64,000 bases of DNA from the NCBI RefSeq assembly GCF_003334385.1, contig NZ_QOWN01000008.1; one strand, written 5' to 3'. Within the stretch, counting starts at the first letter, position 1; each line of letters begins with the position of its first letter. The translations under genes were made by a program, and so were the position numbers. Source of the stretch: Escherichia coli (GTDB taxonomy: Bacteria; Pseudomonadota; Gammaproteobacteria; Enterobacterales; Enterobacteriaceae). The notes under the pieces were generated by a model. That model was given only the letters and a program-made list of their open reading frames with translations. It searched no databases and was not told where the DNA came from. Positions 1 through 59,539 of this stretch are shown here, one piece after another.

Positions 1-3000
1 AACCCAGCCGCGTCTGAATATCATCACCCTGCGATTGTGACACGCGCGCACGGTTAGCGGCGGTAAAATCATCCTGCTGCACGCCCTGATAAATCACCTG
101 CGCCTGCGGTTCAATCACCACACCACGCCCCGGTAACCACTGATACCCCGCCTCCAGCGAGGCGATAATCCCCGACGAGTGGTAATGATCTGTGCCATCT
201 TCTTGTTCGGAAACATCATTGCTAAACCACGCGTATTGCAGCCAGCTATCCAGCCAGGCCCCTTGCTTCTGATTACCGTGCTGAAACCAGCTTGATGTCA
301 GCCCAACGGCATAACCGTGGTTCTGGTTATCGGCGCGAGTTCCGGTCATATTCGAGCGGCTGTCGCCCTGGTTATCGCTGTAGCCACCAACAATCCCAAG
401 CATCCACTCGCCATCCGTGCCCCAGCGCCCGCTAAACAGATCGCCGCTAAGTTGCACCGTAGAAGTGTCTTCATGTTGAGCCAGTTGCCCCGCTGCTGTG
501 TAATGATAATCTCCGCCGATAACACGTAAATTCAGCGTCTGACCATCGCCACCTGCGTGATCGCGTCGCTCCATCATAAACGCCTGATTTGCCGCCCGCA
601 GGTTATTGAGATAACCGCCAACTTTGGCATTCAACACCGGCTGGTAAGCAGGCGTAGGTTCCGGGTCGGGTGTTGGATCAGGATCCGGCGTGGGATCAGG
701 ATCGGGAGTCGGGTCTGGATCAGGTGGCGATGGCGGCGTTACTTCTTGCGATCGCAGATACCAGTCGTTGTTATCTTCCACCAGCGTGTAGTCATACGCT
801 CCCATATTGACGTAGCCGCTGCCTGCCAGACTGAACTGCGCATTGTTTTGAAACTGCGTGGGATCAGCTGCGAAATCAACCACTTTAATGCCTGTCGATG
901 TCGGCTCACCAATCCCTGTAATGGAGTTAACCACCACAGTTGTGTTGCCAGCAGTATTACCGTTCATCACCAATTGATCGCTTACCGAGTCATCGCCGTT
1001 TAATTCGCTATCGAGCAGTAGCGTACCGCCGCCGGTATAATCACCGTTTACCGTCAGCGTATCGCCAGCGACGCCATTTTGCAGGCTAACCGCACCGGAC
1101 GTATTGGTCAGATTGCCATTAACCGTCACGTTGGAAAGATAAGTCAGGCTGTCAGTTTCAAGGTTGGTATTAAGCTCACCTGTCAACGTCACACCATCGG
1201 TGGCATTCACCAGCGTCCCATCGCCGTTAAATAGTGAGGCATTAAGGGCGACGGAAGTATCCTGCCCGGTCAGGCGCAAAACCGTACCATCGCTGATGTC
1301 GATAGTGCCGCTGGAAATAGCATCAATTGACTGAATATCCTGATCCGCGCCAGTAACGAACGTTGCCCCATCACCAACCCACAGTGACGAAGCATAAGGA
1401 AGGATATCAGCAACATCACCTTTCAGGGTGCCTTCTTCGACACGTACCGCCGACTGCGTTGTACCGCTGGCGGTCAGCTCCAGTGTACCAGCCCCCGTTT
1501 TAGTCAATGTGCTACCCTCATCCTGATGCTGCCCGCTGCTGTCAGCCATCAGTGCGCCCCACTGCGTGTCTACCCCCGCATCAACTGCCACTTCACCGTC
1601 GGCGCGCATTTCAATATCACGTCCGTGGCCTGCCGCATCTGAACGCGTGTCAACGTCGGAGGTAATCTCCATCACGCTTTCTTGTTGCTTATCGGTAAAG
1701 ATAACCTGGCGGTTATAGTGGGTATCTCCAAGCTGCGAGTTGTCGCTCACCATCAGCGTACCGGAGGCGATTTGTGTTGTGCCCAAATAACTATTATTGT
1801 TTGCCAGACTTACCTGCCCGTCGCTCGCATCGACCACCACGTAGACGCCATCTTTCCCGTCGCCGCCGATATGCAAATTGTCGCCACCTGCAAGATCTAC
1901 CACATCCTGACTGCCGATAACCGTTCCGCTGCTGCCACTGACTTCAAGGCCATCGTTGTATGATGTGCCGCTCTGCCAGGTGGAGAAATCAGAGAGATCG
2001 AGCACACCGCCGTTTAACACGATCGACTGCGGATCGTCCTGGAGAGCGGTAAGATCTGCCGCGTCGCCTTCCAGCGAAAGCACCGCACCATCATCAACGA
2101 CTATATCGCCGGTTAGCGCCATCGACTGCGCCCCTGCCAGCACGTAGCTGCCGTTTTGCGCAATGGTGAGCTGACCAGCACCTTCGATGATGCCAGCAAA
2201 ACTGCCCTGATTAACAGTAACGTTGCCACCAGCATCGATATTTAAAGTGCCATTCTGAAAGCCCGTCAATGCGTGCACAAAAGTTTGTTGGGTCGAGCCA
2301 ACGTTTAGCTCAGCCTGATTCTGATACTGATCAATACTCCCTATCGTCAGACCGTAGCAGTCTTGCGGATCGTCCTGGCAATGCGTATCGCCGACATTCA
2401 TCAGGGAGTTGCTGCGGCCCAGGGTAACTTCACCGTTTTCAATCTGCATCTCACCAGTAAAGTCATTGTTATCTGCATTAAGTACCAGATCGCCGGAACC
2501 TGTTTTGGTGATTAACCCGGTACCAGCAATAGAGTCAACAGCTCCGTCATTCTCTGTATTGCCAATAACCAGCGTTTTTCCGTCGGCAATATCAAAGGTA
2601 ACTTCACTTAAGCCGAGATACATAAAGCCACCCGCCGCAGAGGAAGGACCATCTCCATAGCCTGCTGCGCTATTGTTCTCATCGACTAACACGCCTCCGT
2701 TCTGGCTGTAGCTGTCATCAACAGAAATATCAATAAGATAGGGAGCCGTCACGCTATTGGTATATATCGCCCCGCCATAACCTTCGGCAGTGTTATTTGT
2801 AAAGGCAGTGTTATTTACTATCGTATAACCTGAAGGATGCTTGCTGTCGCTATTATTATCGGTAACATCGATTGCCCCGCCATCGCCATCACTGTAACTT
2901 GTTGATGTATATGCCTGGTTGTTATCAAAAATAACATCACTTAAATAAACGTCATTATTAATGGTATAAATTGCGCCACCTTTGCCATCATTAGCGATGT

Positions 3001-3493
3001 TATTGCGAAACATGGCGTTAGTGACACGTAAATCGACGGCACCAGTATCGTTAGTACCAGAAGAATAGATTGCGCCACCATAGCCGCCTGCGACGTTACC
3101 GGAAAAAATAACATCAGTAAGATTCAGCGTTGAGTTTTCTTTAGCAAATATGGCCCCGCCGTTATTATATTCTCCTGTAACGGTGTTATTGGCAAACAGA
3201 GTCATTCCAGTTTCATTTTCTGGTAATAGTGAAAATTCCGCTCCTTGTTGCAAAAATACGGCCCCACCGCTGGCGTTATTGGTCATATCCGAAAAAACCA
3301 GCCATTGCCCATCAGCGATACTCCAGTCCTGCGTAATGCCTGAAAGGCTTTGCCTGCTGGCCTGACAACTCGCTTTGACATCATATCCCTGGCATGAATC
3401 AGTGACCGCCGCGACACCGTTAGCAGAGAAAAGAGATGCAATCATTGACGGGAGTAAAGATAAATACTCCTTGCGTAGAAAGATAATCCGCAT
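1..3493 (-). CDS. yfaL: Autotransporter adhesin YfaL, partial (C-terminal beta-barrel end runs off the window start); start codon ATG at 3493
   Basis: Continuous minus-strand reading frame across 1..3493; translation begins MRIIFLRKEYLSLLPSMIASLFSANG (signal peptide) followed by Gly/Asn/Thr-rich beta-helix-like repeats and a Pro-Asp-Thr linker, matching recalled YfaL. Not listed in the ORF track because it is truncated by the window edge. Confidence 0.88.
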   Translation of the reverse strand, partial: MRIIFLRKEYLSLLPSMIASLFSANGVAAVTDSCQGYDVKASCQASRQSLSGITQDWSIADGQWLVFSDMTNNASGGAVFLQQGAEFSLLPENETGMTLFANNTVTGEYNNGGAIFAKENSTLNLTDVIFSGNVAGGYGGAIYSSGTNDTGAVDLRVTNAMFRNNIANDGKGGAIYTINNDVYLSDVIFDNNQAYTSTSYSDGDGGAIDVTDNNSDSKHPSGYTIVNNTAFTNNTAEGYGGAIYTNSVTAPYLIDISVDDSYSQNGGVLVDENNSAAGYGDGPSSAAGGFMYLGLSEVTFDIADGKTLVIGNTENDGAVDSIAGTGLITKTGSGDLVLNADNNDFTGEMQIENGEVTLGRSNSLMNVGDTHCQDDPQDCYGLTIGSIDQYQNQAELNVGSTQQTFVHALTGFQNGTLNIDAGGNVTVNQGSFAGIIEGAGQLTIAQNGSYVLAGAQSMALTGDIVVDDGAVLSLEGDAADLTALQDDPQSIVLNGGVLDLSDFSTWQSGTSYNDGLEVSGSSGTVIGSQDVVDLAGGDNLHIGGDGKDGVYVVVDASDGQVSLANNNSYLGTTQIASGTLMVSDNSQLGDTHYNRQVIFTDKQQESVMEITSDVDTRSDAAGHGRDIEMRADGEVAVDAGVDTQWGALMADSSGQHQDEGSTLTKTGAGTLELTASGTTQSAVRVEEGTLKGDVADILPYASSLWVGDGATFVTGADQDIQSIDAISSGTIDISDGTVLRLTGQDTSVALNASLFNGDGTLVNATDGVTLTGELNTNLETDSLTYLSNVTVNGNLTNTSGAVSLQNGVAGDTLTVNGDYTGGGTLLLDSELNGDDSVSDQLVMNGNTAGNTTVVVNSITGIGEPTSTGIKVVDFAADPTQFQNNAQFSLAGSGYVNMGAYDYTLVEDNNDWYLRSQEVTPPSPPDPDPTPDPDPTPDPDPTPDPEPTPAYQPVLNAKVGGYLNNLRAANQAFMMERRDHAGGDGQTLNLRVIGGDYHYTAAGQLAQHEDTSTVQLSGDLFSGRWGTDGEWMLGIVGGYSDNQGDSRSNMTGTRADNQNHGYAVGLTSSWFQHGNQKQGAWLDSWLQYAWFSNDVSEQEDGTDHYHSSGIIASLEAGYQWLPGRGVVIEPQAQVIYQGVQQDDFTAANRARVSQSQGDDIQTRLG
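655..735 (-). repeat. In-frame tandem short repeat encoding a (PDPDPT)n-like Pro/Asp/Thr linker inside yfaL
   Basis: Plus-strand text ggatcaggatccggcgtgggatcaggatcgggagtcgggtctggatcagg; minus-strand translation ...PPDPDPTPDPDPTPDPDPTPDPEPTP. Coordinates approximate. Confidence 0.6.
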
Positions 3494-4188: not shown

Positions 4189-6474
4189 ATGAATCAGAAT
4201 CTGCTGGTGACAAAGCGCGACGGTAGCACAGAGCGCATCAATCTCGACAAAATCCATCGCGTTCTGGATTGGGCGGCAGAAGGACTGCATAACGTTTCGA
4301 TTTCCCAGGTCGAGCTGCGCTCCCACATTCAGTTTTATGACGGTATCAAGACCTCTGACATCCACGAAACCATTATCAAGGCTGCCGCAGACCTGATCTC
4401 CCGTGATGCGCCGGATTATCAGTATCTCGCCGCGCGCCTGGCGATCTTCCACCTGCGTAAAAAAGCCTACGGCCAGTTTGAGCCGCCTGCGCTGTACGAC
4501 CACGTGGTGAAAATGGTCGAGATGGGCAAATACGATAATCATCTGCTGGAAGACTACACGGAAGAAGAGTTCAAGCAGATGGACACCTTTATCGATCACG
4601 ACCGTGATATGACCTTCTCTTATGCTGCCGTTAAGCAGCTGGAAGGCAAATATCTGGTACAGAACCGCGTGACCGGCGAAATCTATGAGAGCGCCCAGTT
4701 CCTTTATATTCTAGTTGCCGCGTGCTTGTTCTCGAACTACCCGCGTGAAACGCGCCTGCAATATGTGAAGCGTTTTTACGACGCGGTTTCCACATTTAAA
4801 ATTTCGCTGCCGACGCCAATCATGTCCGGCGTGCGTACCCCGACTCGTCAGTTCAGCTCCTGCGTACTGATCGAGTGCGGTGACAGCCTGGATTCCATCA
4901 ACGCCACCTCCAGCGCGATTGTTAAATACGTTTCCCAGCGTGCCGGGATCGGCATCAACGCCGGGCGTATTCGTGCGCTGGGTAGCCCGATTCGCGGTGG
5001 TGAAGCGTTCCATACCGGCTGCATTCCGTTCTACAAACATTTCCAGACAGCGGTGAAATCCTGCTCTCAGGGCGGTGTGCGCGGCGGTGCGGCAACGCTG
5101 TTCTACCCGATGTGGCATCTGGAAGTGGAAAGCCTGCTGGTGTTGAAAAACAACCGTGGTGTGGAAGGCAACCGCGTGCGTCATATGGACTACGGGGTAC
5201 AAATCAACAAACTGATGTATACCCGTCTGCTGAAAGGTGAAGATATCACCCTGTTCAGCCCGTCCGACGTACCGGGGCTGTACGACGCGTTCTTCGCCGA
5301 TCAGGAAGAGTTTGAACGTCTGTATACCAAATATGAGAAAGACGACAGCATCCGCAAGCAGCGTGTGAAAGCCGTTGAGCTGTTCTCGCTGATGATGCAG
5401 GAACGTGCGTCTACCGGTCGTATCTATATTCAGAACGTTGACCACTGCAATACCCATAGCCCGTTTGATCCGGCCATCGCGCCAGTGCGTCAGTCTAACC
5501 TGTGCCTGGAGATAGCCCTGCCGACCAAACCGCTGAACGACGTCAACGACGAGAACGGTGAAATCGCGCTGTGTACGCTGTCTGCTTTCAACCTGGGCGC
5601 AATTAATAACCTGGATGAACTGGAAGAGCTGGCAATTCTGGCGGTTCGTGCACTTGACGCGCTGCTGGATTATCAGGATTACCCGATCCCGGCCGCCAAA
5701 CGTGGAGCGATGGGTCGTCGTACGCTGGGTATTGGTGTGATCAACTTCGCTTACTACCTGGCGAAGCACGGTAAACGCTACTCCGACGGCAGCGCCAACA
5801 ACCTGACGCATAAAACCTTCGAAGCCATTCAGTATTACCTGCTGAAAGCCTCTAATGAGCTGGCGAAAGAGCAAGGCGCGTGCCCGTGGTTTAACGAAAC
5901 CACTTACGCGAAAGGGATCCTGCCGATCGATACCTATAAGAAAGATCTGGATACCATCGCTAATGAGCCGCTGCATTACGACTGGGAAGCTCTGCGTGAG
6001 TCAATCAAAACGCACGGTCTGCGTAACTCCACGCTTTCTGCTCTGATGCCGTCCGAGACTTCTTCGCAGATCTCTAACGCCACTAACGGTATTGAACCGC
6101 CGCGCGGTTACGTCAGCATCAAAGCGTCGAAAGACGGTATTTTGCGCCAGGTGGTGCCGGACTACGAGCACCTGCACGACGCCTATGAGCTGCTGTGGGA
6201 AATGCCGGGTAACGATGGTTATCTGCAACTGGTGGGTATCATGCAGAAATTTATCGATCAGTCGATCTCTGCCAACACCAACTACGATCCGTCACGCTTC
6301 CCGTCAGGAAAAGTGCCGATGCAGCAGTTGCTGAAAGACCTGCTCACCGCCTACAAATTCGGGGTCAAAACACTGTATTATCAGAACACCCGTGACGGCG
6401 CTGAAGACGCACAAGACGATCTGGTGCCGTCAATCCAGGACGATGGCTGCGAAAGCGGCGCATGTAAGATCTGA
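4189..6474 (+). CDS. nrdA: Class Ia ribonucleoside-diphosphate reductase alpha subunit (761 aa)
   Basis: ORF track 4189..6474; translation [32 protein letters not shown]... ending ...[11 protein letters not shown] matches recalled NrdA, including the C-terminal Cys pair. Confidence 0.97.
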
Positions 6475-6479
6475 TATTG

Positions 6480-6690
<211 letters not shown>

Positions 6691-59487: not shown

Positions 59488-59539
59488 TAGCATGCTTCCA
59501 GTTTTCTCAGTCAGAGACTGAGCGTTAATCGAAATTCGG

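What the first reader, a model, noticed from the sequence alone, without database searches (positions are those of the whole stretch)
655..735. Tandem (PDPDPT)n-encoding repeat inside yfaL
A run of near-identical 18-bp units encodes a Pro/Asp/Thr linker between the passenger and translocator regions of the YfaL autotransporter. Such repeats are prone to slipped-strand expansion or contraction and could vary linker length between strains.
Basis: seen in the sequence. Interest (0 to 1): 0.25.

Follow-up and report, generated by a model that had tools for sequence, protein, structure and literature searches.

The report
Variable-length proline linker in YfaL
The repeat is real: it encodes a proline-rich spacer in the E. 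coli surface adhesin YfaL, and its length differs between strains through small in-frame gains and losses of repeat units, which is a familiar kind of variation in surface proteins.

Summary
On the minus strand, window 653-724 is four 18-bp units encoding (PDPDPT)3-PDPEPT. They lie inside a 30-residue Pro/Asp/Thr tract (650-739; YfaL residues 919-948).

The tract sits between the autochaperone/Pertactin domain and the helix that plugs the beta-barrel. "Near-identical" is overstated: the units are identical as protein but only 67-83% identical as DNA, and every difference is at a third codon position.

Among 5,420 complete E. coli genomes carrying the region, I found 11 length classes, from -36 to +24 nt. 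About one third of genomes differ in length from the window.

Every indel seen is in frame, and all but one 3-nt codon loss are multiples of 6 nt. Each of the six simple events I could reconstruct is bounded by a 5-11-nt direct repeat containing GATCC. Rare variants sit on flanks identical to their parent allele, and gains and losses recur on separate haplotypes. That pattern fits replication slippage.

This is not an on/off switch, and recent variants are uncommon (about 0.5-2% of genomes per allele family). Proline-rich, often repetitive linkers at this junction are usual in this autotransporter family. Verdict: an ordinary coding repeat-number polymorphism, apparently undescribed for yfaL. 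Low to moderate interest.

The parts
2..3493 (-). yfaL coding sequence. The ATG is at 3493-3491. The last 86 codons lie beyond the window start.
   Evidence: Open frame of 1,164 codons from the ATG. Joined to the 3' end from a record that is 100% identical over the 321-bp test region, it gives a 1,250-aa protein. RefSeq annotation is yfaL.
650..739 (-). Pro/Asp/Thr-rich spacer, residues 919-948: TPPSPPDPDPTPDPDPTPDPDPTPDPEPTP
   Evidence: Translation: 16 Pro, 8 Asp/Glu and 5 Thr in 30 aa. Coil in the AlphaFold2 model, pLDDT 75-81.
707..724 (-). Unit 1, CCTGATCCAGACCCGACT (PDPDPT)
689..706 (-). Unit 2, CCCGATCCTGATCCCACG (PDPDPT)
671..688 (-). Unit 3, CCGGATCCTGATCCAACA (PDPDPT)
653..670 (-). 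Unit 4, CCCGACCCGGAACCTACG (PDPEPT). The Glu codon is the most variable residue between alleles (E, D, G, or A-P-D).
675..703 (.). Pair of 11-nt exact direct repeats (GGATCAGGATC at 675-685 and 693-703), 18 nt apart. This is the substrate for the natural +18 duplication (strain CFS3246). The same repeat pair in allele L001 bounds the 18-nt deletion that gives allele L010.
752..1114 (-). C-terminal end of the passenger: autochaperone domain AC_1 (residues 794-904) and Pertactin domain (811-914), ending in the conserved W-Y-L motif (W911 at 761-763)
   Evidence: Pfam E-values 1.9e-18 and 1.1e-08. The W is conserved in 147 of 149 aligned family representatives.
584..628 (-). Alpha-helix (residues 956-970) predicted to occupy the barrel pore
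   Evidence: AlphaFold2 model, helix at 170-184 of the 464-aa query
2..529 (-). Autotransporter beta-barrel domain (Pfam PF03797, residues 989-1228), cut off by the window start
   Evidence: Pfam E-value 2.1e-34. Beta-strands run from model residue 200 onward.
856..867 (.). Second copy of a 12-nt direct repeat, GCGTGGGATCAG. The first copy is at 688-699, inside the linker. One genome has a 168-bp in-frame deletion between the two copies.

Best explanation
Window 653-724 is an in-frame coding tandem repeat with variable copy number between strains (a VNTR). It encodes an acidic, proline-rich spacer that tethers the folded YfaL passenger (beta-helix plus autochaperone cap) to the alpha-helix sitting in its outer-membrane beta-barrel.

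Shown here: the position of the tract, its coil prediction, and the polymorphism. E. coli strains carry between 27 and 47 residues between the W-Y-L motif and the A-Y-Q-P motif.

Strongly indicated: the changes arise by misalignment between short direct repeats during replication (slipped-strand mispairing). This adds or removes 6, 12 or 18 nt, that is 2, 4 or 6 residues. Each major allele family has its own slippery unit, set by where its longest exact repeat lies:
- Window/K-12 type: an 11-nt repeat at an 18-nt offset, plus GATCC repeats at a 6-nt offset.
- The family I call B1-type: a perfect 2 x 18-bp tandem, which varies from 1 to 3 copies.
- The family I call B2-type: a 12-bp CCCGACCCAACC unit, which varies from 0 to 3 copies.

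Inferred from the physical chemistry of Pro-X repeats and from known proline-rich spacers: the tract is an extended, fairly stiff stalk, so each unit changes how far the adhesin projects from the membrane. On that reading the observed range would span several nanometres.

Whether length differences affect adhesion, shielding by O-antigen or capsule, or antibody recognition is not shown.

The repeat cannot switch the gene on and off, because every change seen keeps the reading frame.
For: Position: Pfam domains flank the tract, and the AlphaFold2 model shows coil at residues 919-949 between the beta-helix and the pore helix.

Major length classes. Matched lengths of 321, 327, 303 and 296-297 nt appear in evenly spaced samples of 5,420 genomes. 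The -18 class has 1,197 genomes. The -24 class has 169-212. The -12 class has 26 identical copies, including strain 042.

Recent events on flanks identical to the window over about 400 nt:
- +18 in CFS3246, an exact match to a duplication I predicted and built synthetically.
- -18 in UTME-3.
- -6 in UMNF18 and five porcine ETEC strains.
- +6 in WP2-S18-ESBL-08.

Perfect-tandem allele family: the 1-unit form occurs in at least 17 genomes and the 3-unit form in at least 10. They occur on two haplotypes whose flanks are each internally identical but differ from one another by 8 nt.

B2-type family: +12 in 8 genomes, +24 in 1, -12 in 1 and -15 in 9.

Each of six simple events is one contiguous indel bounded by a 5-11-nt direct repeat. 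No indel occurs in the roughly 400 nt of flank in any of the 27 loci compared.

One-unit changes affect about 2.2% of genomes in the perfect-tandem family, against about 0.13% on the window-type background. That is the direction slippage predicts.
Against: The major length classes sit on diverged flanks, and some flank and linker combinations are mosaic. For example, L001 and L006 differ at only 4 flank sites but by 30 nt in the linker. Homologous recombination between alleles therefore contributes to the distribution alongside new slippage events.

Counts are genomes, not independent events, because no phylogeny was built.

A few variants are singletons (UTME-3, WP2-S18-ESBL-08, strain 1105) and could in principle be assembly errors.

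No functional consequence of linker length was tested. The extended-stalk picture rests on a coil prediction and on general knowledge, not on measurement.
Confidence: 0.85

Rival explanations
1. The length differences between strains come mainly from homologous recombination that shuffles old, diverged yfaL alleles. The repeat itself is not unusually mutable.
For: The common classes (0, -18, +6, -24) sit on flanks that differ at 12-37 of about 404 sites. Linker type and flank similarity are not fully congruent. The same -6 linker occurs on two backgrounds that differ at 14 flank sites, which could reflect transfer rather than recurrence.
Against: At least nine variant alleles have flanks identical to a parent allele of a different length. 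Their junctions fall exactly at short direct repeats. All indels fall in the linker segment of about 100 nt and none in about 400 nt of flank. Both gain and loss are seen on each of two B1-type haplotypes.
Confidence: 0.1
2. The rare length variants are sequencing or assembly artefacts in a repetitive stretch.
For: Some variants are single genomes. The two +18 records have the same chromosome length and are probably one strain.
Against: The array is only 72-141 nt, shorter than a sequencing read. All but one of the changes are clean multiples of 6 nt (the exception is an in-frame 3-nt codon loss), not the homopolymer errors typical of long reads. Several variants recur in many independent genomes: 14 or more near-identical 1-unit alleles, 9 of the -15 allele, 8 of the +12 allele and 6 of the -6 allele. 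RefSeq annotates the genes as intact.
Confidence: 0.03
3. The repeat is a contingency locus: a hypermutable simple repeat that switches YfaL expression on and off, or drives rapid antigenic variation.
For: YfaL is a surface adhesin, and other surface proteins use repeats in this way. The tract is the densest cluster of GATC (Dam) sites in the window.
Against: Units are 6, 12 or 18 nt, and every observed change keeps the frame, so no on/off switching is possible. There are only 1 to 5 units. Recent variants are found in only about 0.5-2% of genomes within an allele family. 2,033 genomes are at least 99% identical to the window over 321 nt, which allows no indel of 6 nt or more.
Confidence: 0.02

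Closest known systems
Bordetella pertactin repeat regions, (GGXXP)n and (PQP)n
   Same: These are in-frame, proline-containing tandem repeats in a classical (type Va) autotransporter. Their copy number differs between isolates and is used for typing (PMC12243275). YfaL also carries a Pertactin-family domain just upstream of its tract.
   Different: The repeat sequences differ. From my own knowledge, the GGXXP region is a loop within the beta-helix, and pertactin variation is linked to vaccine-driven selection. No selective agent is known for YfaL.
TibA proline-rich domain (E. coli self-associating autotransporter)
   Same: [quoted passage not shown]
   Different: It is about 50 aa long with a different sequence. 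Strain-to-strain length variation was not examined here. My recollection that deleting it abolishes adhesion could not be checked in the paper library.
Proline-rich linkers across AIDA-I/pertactin-type autotransporters
   Same: In 147 family representatives (one per 50%-identity cluster), the segment between the conserved W-Y-L motif and the pore helix is 15-91 aa long (median 31). It is at least 25% Pro in 118 of them. 30 have tandem P-[D/E]-P-x motifs, and several have their own longer repeats, for example (PPDVT)x10.
   Different: Those are comparisons between proteins. The YfaL result adds within-species copy-number variation at one orthologous locus.
Generic E. coli MLVA typing loci (CVN001 to CVN017; CVN002 and CVN007 have 18-bp units)
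   Same: They are chromosomal E. coli tandem repeats whose copy number varies between strains. Two of them have the same 18-bp unit length (PMC8143711).
   Different: None of the 20 published primers maps anywhere in the 64-kb window with up to 3 mismatches, so the yfaL repeat is not one of these loci. It also has fewer alleles per lineage than the most variable typing loci.
Phase-variable simple-sequence contingency loci
   Same: Both change by slipped-strand mispairing in a surface-protein gene.
   Different: There is no frame shifting, the copy number is low and the apparent rate is low. The locus tunes length and does not act as a switch.

Membership tests
Classical (type Va) AIDA-I-type autotransporter, YfaL/EhaC | C-terminal 12-stranded beta-barrel translocator (Pfam PF03797) | tested here: met
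   PF03797 E-value 2.1e-34 at residues 989-1228. The barrel strands are modelled with high confidence.
Classical (type Va) AIDA-I-type autotransporter, YfaL/EhaC | Passenger with beta-helix repeats and a C-terminal autochaperone/junction domain | tested here: met
   Three PATR repeats, AC_1 (1.9e-18) and Pertactin (1.1e-08).
Classical (type Va) AIDA-I-type autotransporter, YfaL/EhaC | Alpha-helical segment linking the passenger to the barrel | tested here: met
   Helix at residues 956-970, directly after the Pro-rich tract. This is a prediction only.
Classical (type Va) AIDA-I-type autotransporter, YfaL/EhaC | Orthology to E. coli yfaL (sequence and gene neighbourhood) | tested here: met
   100% identity over the 321-bp test region to RefSeq loci annotated yfaL, lying between ubiG and ypaB-nrdA. 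nrdA is at window 4189-6474.
Coding variable-number tandem repeat changing by slipped-strand mispairing | Head-to-tail repeated units | tested here: met
   Tandem Repeats Finder period 18. Four in-register units.
Coding variable-number tandem repeat changing by slipped-strand mispairing | Copy number or length differs between strains of the species | tested here: met
   11 length classes (81 to 141 nt between the W-Y-L and A-Y-Q motifs) in 5,420 genomes.
Coding variable-number tandem repeat changing by slipped-strand mispairing | Indel junctions fall at direct repeats, in register with the units | tested here: met
   Six events are bounded by 5-11-nt repeats. The 1-, 2- and 3-copy and the 0- to 3-copy allele series are consistent with this.
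Coding variable-number tandem repeat changing by slipped-strand mispairing | Changes recur independently (same event on different backgrounds, or gain and loss on one background) | tested here: met
   Flanks of L005, L022 and L023 are identical, and flanks of L024 and L025 are identical, with 8 differences between the two groups. No genome phylogeny was built, so events were not counted formally.
Coding variable-number tandem repeat changing by slipped-strand mispairing | Measured elevated mutation rate at the locus | not testable with these tools
   This needs fluctuation or mutation-accumulation experiments.
Phase-variable contingency locus | Repeat changes shift the reading frame or alter promoter spacing to switch expression | tested here: not met
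   All observed changes are multiples of 3 nt, and all but one are multiples of 6. The frame stays open in all 27 linker loci.
Proline-rich extracellular spacer of autotransporters (TibA-like) | Located between the junction/autochaperone region and the membrane-embedded domain | tested here: met
   Definition taken from PMC3835316.
Proline-rich extracellular spacer of autotransporters (TibA-like) | High proline content and no regular secondary structure | tested here: met
   16 of 30 residues are Pro. Coil in the model.
Proline-rich extracellular spacer of autotransporters (TibA-like) | Required for, or modulates, adhesin function | not testable with these tools

The most novel reading that the evidence does not exclude
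Linker length could be a selected, tunable trait. Each E. coli lineage would set how far YfaL projects so that it clears that lineage's own O-antigen or capsule layer, or so that it escapes antibodies.

On this reading, alleles differ in evolvability by design. The window/K-12 type has synonymously scrambled units that resist slippage: third-position matches are 7 of 36 against 12.8 expected, P about 0.03. The B1-type allele keeps a perfect tandem that changes readily.
Probability: 0.1. Interest if true: 0.5.

Novelty: new member of a known kind. Interest (0 to 1): 0.25.

Why it matters
Three modest points follow.

First, it gives a clean natural example of how repeat perfection sets indel rate within one gene. 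One-unit changes are found in about 2% of genomes with the perfect 18-bp tandem, against about 0.1% of genomes with the codon-scrambled version.

Second, YfaL is used as a scaffold for surface display. From my own knowledge, display scaffolds depend on the spacer, and nature has already sampled linkers of 18 to 38 residues that are annotated as intact. That gives a ready-made series to test.

Third, the locus is a small extra marker that separates major E. coli lineages and some clones. It does not change how autotransporters are understood.

Tried and rejected
- **Chance or low complexity.** Rejected: none of 20,000 shuffles reached the observed identity at an 18-nt offset.
- **Recent DNA-level duplication in the window allele.** Rejected: third codon positions are no more alike than random synonymous choice.
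- **Selection for codon scrambling.** The deficit of third-position matches is only marginal (P about 0.03). I do not claim it.
- **The exact unit-2/unit-3 fusion deletion on the window background.** No hit reached 99% identity. The natural -18 on that background (UTME-3) uses a different register with 5 nt of homology. The fusion does occur on another background (L001 to L010).
- **Word-indexed protein search.** It returned mostly fragments and added little beyond a shorter allele and a few distant linkers. The exhaustive representative search was more useful.
- **Weak Pfam match to the trypanosome procyclin repeat family** (E = 0.75). Treated as shared composition only.
- **Literature.** No paper in the library holds both yfaL and VNTR. 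The three papers with both YfaL and EhaC are gene-content surveys. A search for TibA proline-rich-region function found nothing relevant.
- **MLVA loci.** None of the 20 primers maps in the window, so this is not a known typing locus.
- **Phase variation.** Rejected on reading frame.

Full report
**What is in the sequence**

The window begins inside a long minus-strand open frame. It starts at the ATG at 3493 and runs off the window at base 2. nrdA follows on the plus strand at 4189-6474.

RefSeq annotates the matching DNA in thousands of genomes as "yfaL: AIDA-I family autotransporter adhesin YfaL/EhaC", lying between ubiG and ypaB-nrdA. I joined the window's 1,164 codons to the 3' end of a record that is 100% identical over the 321-bp test region. 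This gives the 1,250-residue protein.

Read codon by codon on the minus strand, 724-653 is four 18-bp units encoding PDPDPT, PDPDPT, PDPDPT and PDPEPT. They lie inside a 30-residue tract, TPPSPP(DPDPTP)3DPEPTP, at 739-650, which is residues 919-948. Tandem Repeats Finder detects the array at periods 18 and 36. It is the only coding tandem repeat in the 64-kb window that scores 50 or more. None of 20,000 shuffles reached the observed identity at an 18-nt offset.

The units are identical as protein but only 67-83% identical as DNA, and every mismatch is at a third codon position. Third positions match in 7 of 36 comparisons, against 12.8 +/- 3.1 expected from random synonymous choice with the gene's own codon usage. 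This allele therefore shows no sign of recent DNA duplication. Its longest exact direct repeat is 11 nt, at 675-685 and 693-703.

**Where it sits in the protein**

| Feature | Residues | Source |
|---|---|---|
| Autochaperone domain AC_1 | 794-904 | Pfam, |
| Pertactin domain | 811-914 | Pfam, |
| Pro-rich tract (coil, pLDDT 75-81) | 919-949 | AlphaFold2, |
| Helix before the barrel | 956-970 | AlphaFold2, |
| Autotransporter beta-domain | 989-1228 | Pfam, |

Pfam coordinates have 239 added because a truncated query was used. The AlphaFold2 model covers the last 464 residues. It was built on an alignment of 51 homologues and has mean pLDDT 92.9.

**Does it vary between strains?**

Yes. A 321-bp query spanning the tract matched 5,420 of 5,426 complete E. 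coli genomes, once each. Evenly spaced samples of the ranking showed matched lengths of 321, 327, 303 and 296-297 nt.

I fetched representatives and then used allele-specific and synthetic queries. These are the length classes, relative to the window:

| Change (nt) | Genomes | Notes |
|---|---|---|
| 0 | about two thirds (118 of 177 informative sampled rows) | includes K-12, O157:H7 and B2-type strains |
| -18 | 1,197 | PPDPDPDPTPDPDPTPDPIP, e.g. O111:H8; SE11 falls in this length class |
| +6 | about 7% (12 of 177 rows) | ...PDPAPDPTP |
| -24 | 169-212 | |
| -12 | 26 identical copies, plus 1 on a B2-type background | includes strain 042 |
| -36 | at least 17 | |
| -15 | 9 | |
| +12 | 8 | |
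| -6 | at least 7 | |
| +18 | 2 records | probably one strain |
| +24 | 1 | |

The segment between W-Y-L and A-Y-Q-P thus ranges from 27 to 47 residues. Phylogroup labels (B1, B2 and so on) are my inference from well-known strain names, not a computed result.

**How the changes arise**

Several variants sit on flanks that are identical to a parent allele over about 400 nt.

On the window's own background:
- +18 in CFS3246. This is an exact match to a duplication I had predicted from the 11-nt repeat and built as a synthetic query.
- -18 in UTME-3.
- -6 in UMNF18 and five porcine ETEC strains.
- +6 in WP2-S18-ESBL-08.

Each of six simple events is one contiguous indel bounded by a direct repeat of 5-11 nt containing GATCC. 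GATCC is the Asp-Pro codon junction.

The -18 (B1-type) allele family carries a perfect 2 x 18-bp tandem. Synthetic 1-unit and 3-unit versions both found natural matches. Both forms occur on two haplotypes whose flanks are internally identical but differ from each other at 8 sites. So gain and loss have recurred.

In B2-type alleles the slippery unit is a 12-bp CCCGACCCAACC, present in 0, 1, 2 or 3 copies. One allele has also lost a CCG codon.

No indel was seen in the flanks of any of the 27 loci compared. All this fits slipped-strand mispairing.

The rate also tracks repeat perfection:
- Perfect-tandem family: about 27 of roughly 1,224 genomes (2.2%) carry a one-unit change.
- Window-type background: 3 of about 2,396 genomes (0.13%) carry a ±18-nt change, and about 8 carry a ±6-nt change.
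- B2-type background: about 19 of roughly 1,300 genomes (1.4%) carry a variant.

These are counts of genomes, not of events.

**What it is not**

It is not a phase-variation switch, because every change keeps the frame. It is not highly unstable. 2,033 genomes are at least 99% identical to the window over 321 nt, which excludes any indel of 6 nt or more.

The common classes sit on diverged flanks with some mosaicism. Recombination between old alleles therefore also shapes the distribution.

Assembly error is unlikely for the variants that recur, and cannot be fully excluded for the singletons.

**How it probably works**

The following is inference. A tract with Pro at every second position and many acidic residues is expected to be extended and fairly stiff. 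That would hold the folded passenger away from the barrel mouth. Adding or removing units would change the adhesin's reach by several nanometres over the observed range. Whether this matters for adhesion, for shielding by O-antigen or capsule, or for antibody recognition was not tested and cannot be tested here.

**Comparison with what is known**

Proline-rich linkers at this junction are the rule in the family. I aligned 147 representatives of the 3,562 homologues found in a 1.84-billion-protein library. The linker is 15-91 aa long (median 31). It is at least 25% Pro in 118 of the 147, and several have their own tandem repeats.

TibA has "an additional proline-rich domain" at the same place (PMC3835316). 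Pertactin's GGXXP and PQP repeats vary in number between isolates and are used for typing (PMC12243275).

I found no paper linking yfaL to a variable repeat. None of the ten generic E. coli MLVA primer pairs maps in the window (PMC8143711). The yfaL polymorphism therefore appears to be undescribed. It is a new member of a familiar kind.

**Verdict**

It is now quantified: a real, slowly changing, in-frame repeat-number polymorphism in an autotransporter spacer. Interest is low to moderate (0.25).

Noticed in passing
window 688-699 and 856-867; locus L021 (NZ_CP178670.1, strain VTB97022v): One genome has a 168-bp in-frame deletion between two copies of a 12-nt direct repeat, GCGTGGGATCAG. One copy is inside the linker and the other is in the autochaperone domain. 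The deletion removes the end of that domain plus half the linker (…FAADPT|PDPDPTPDPEPTP…). RefSeq still annotates the gene as intact.
   Followed up: partly
window 676-721: The linker is the densest cluster of GATC (Dam methylation) sites in the 64-kb window: 5 sites in 43 nt, and 6 in 80 nt. This is a by-product of GAT-CCN (Asp-Pro) codon pairs. Whether it has any consequence, such as SeqA binding, is unknown.
   Followed up: partly
locus L009 (NZ_CP025859.1, strain 504239) and L001 (strain ST2747): yfaL is annotated as a frameshifted pseudogene in these strains. In strain 504239 the linker region is 100% identical to the window, and the frame is lost near nucleotide 390 of the gene. In ST2747 (a +6 linker allele) the 526-bp linker segment is open, so the frameshift lies elsewhere. 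The window's own copy is open throughout the part visible here.
   Followed up: partly
window 6483-6651: A 1.9-copy, 87-bp tandem of REP-like sequence lies just downstream of nrdA. It has an Rfam match to naRNA4 (nucleoid-associated noncoding RNA 4) at 6531-6601 on the minus strand, 76 bits.
   Followed up: no
window 59495-59537 (minus strand): Rfam match to the nuoG RNA motif, at 50.3 bits against a gathering score of 33.
   Followed up: no
NZ_CP051662.1 (strain 1162T7, 148-kb record labelled as a plasmid), hit H33: The only non-chromosomal record carrying yfaL. It may be a chromosomal fragment mislabelled as a plasmid, or a chromosomal segment captured on a plasmid.
   Followed up: no
protein P0003 (ENA metagenome): A YfaL C-terminal fragment lacks the whole linker and the last 13 residues of the passenger (…GAYDYT|PAYQPVLNAK…). 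It is a single sequence and could be a real deletion or an assembly artefact.
   Followed up: no
loci L011, L003 and L007 (annotated yfaL lengths 3714, 3765 and 3759 nt): The total gene length differs from what the linker alone explains: -39 nt in L011, and +6 nt in each of L003 and L007. So yfaL has other in-frame indels outside the region examined.
   Followed up: no
E. coli genome collection: 6 of 5,426 complete genomes gave no match to the 321-bp yfaL segment. The gene, or this part of it, is presumably deleted in them.
   Followed up: no
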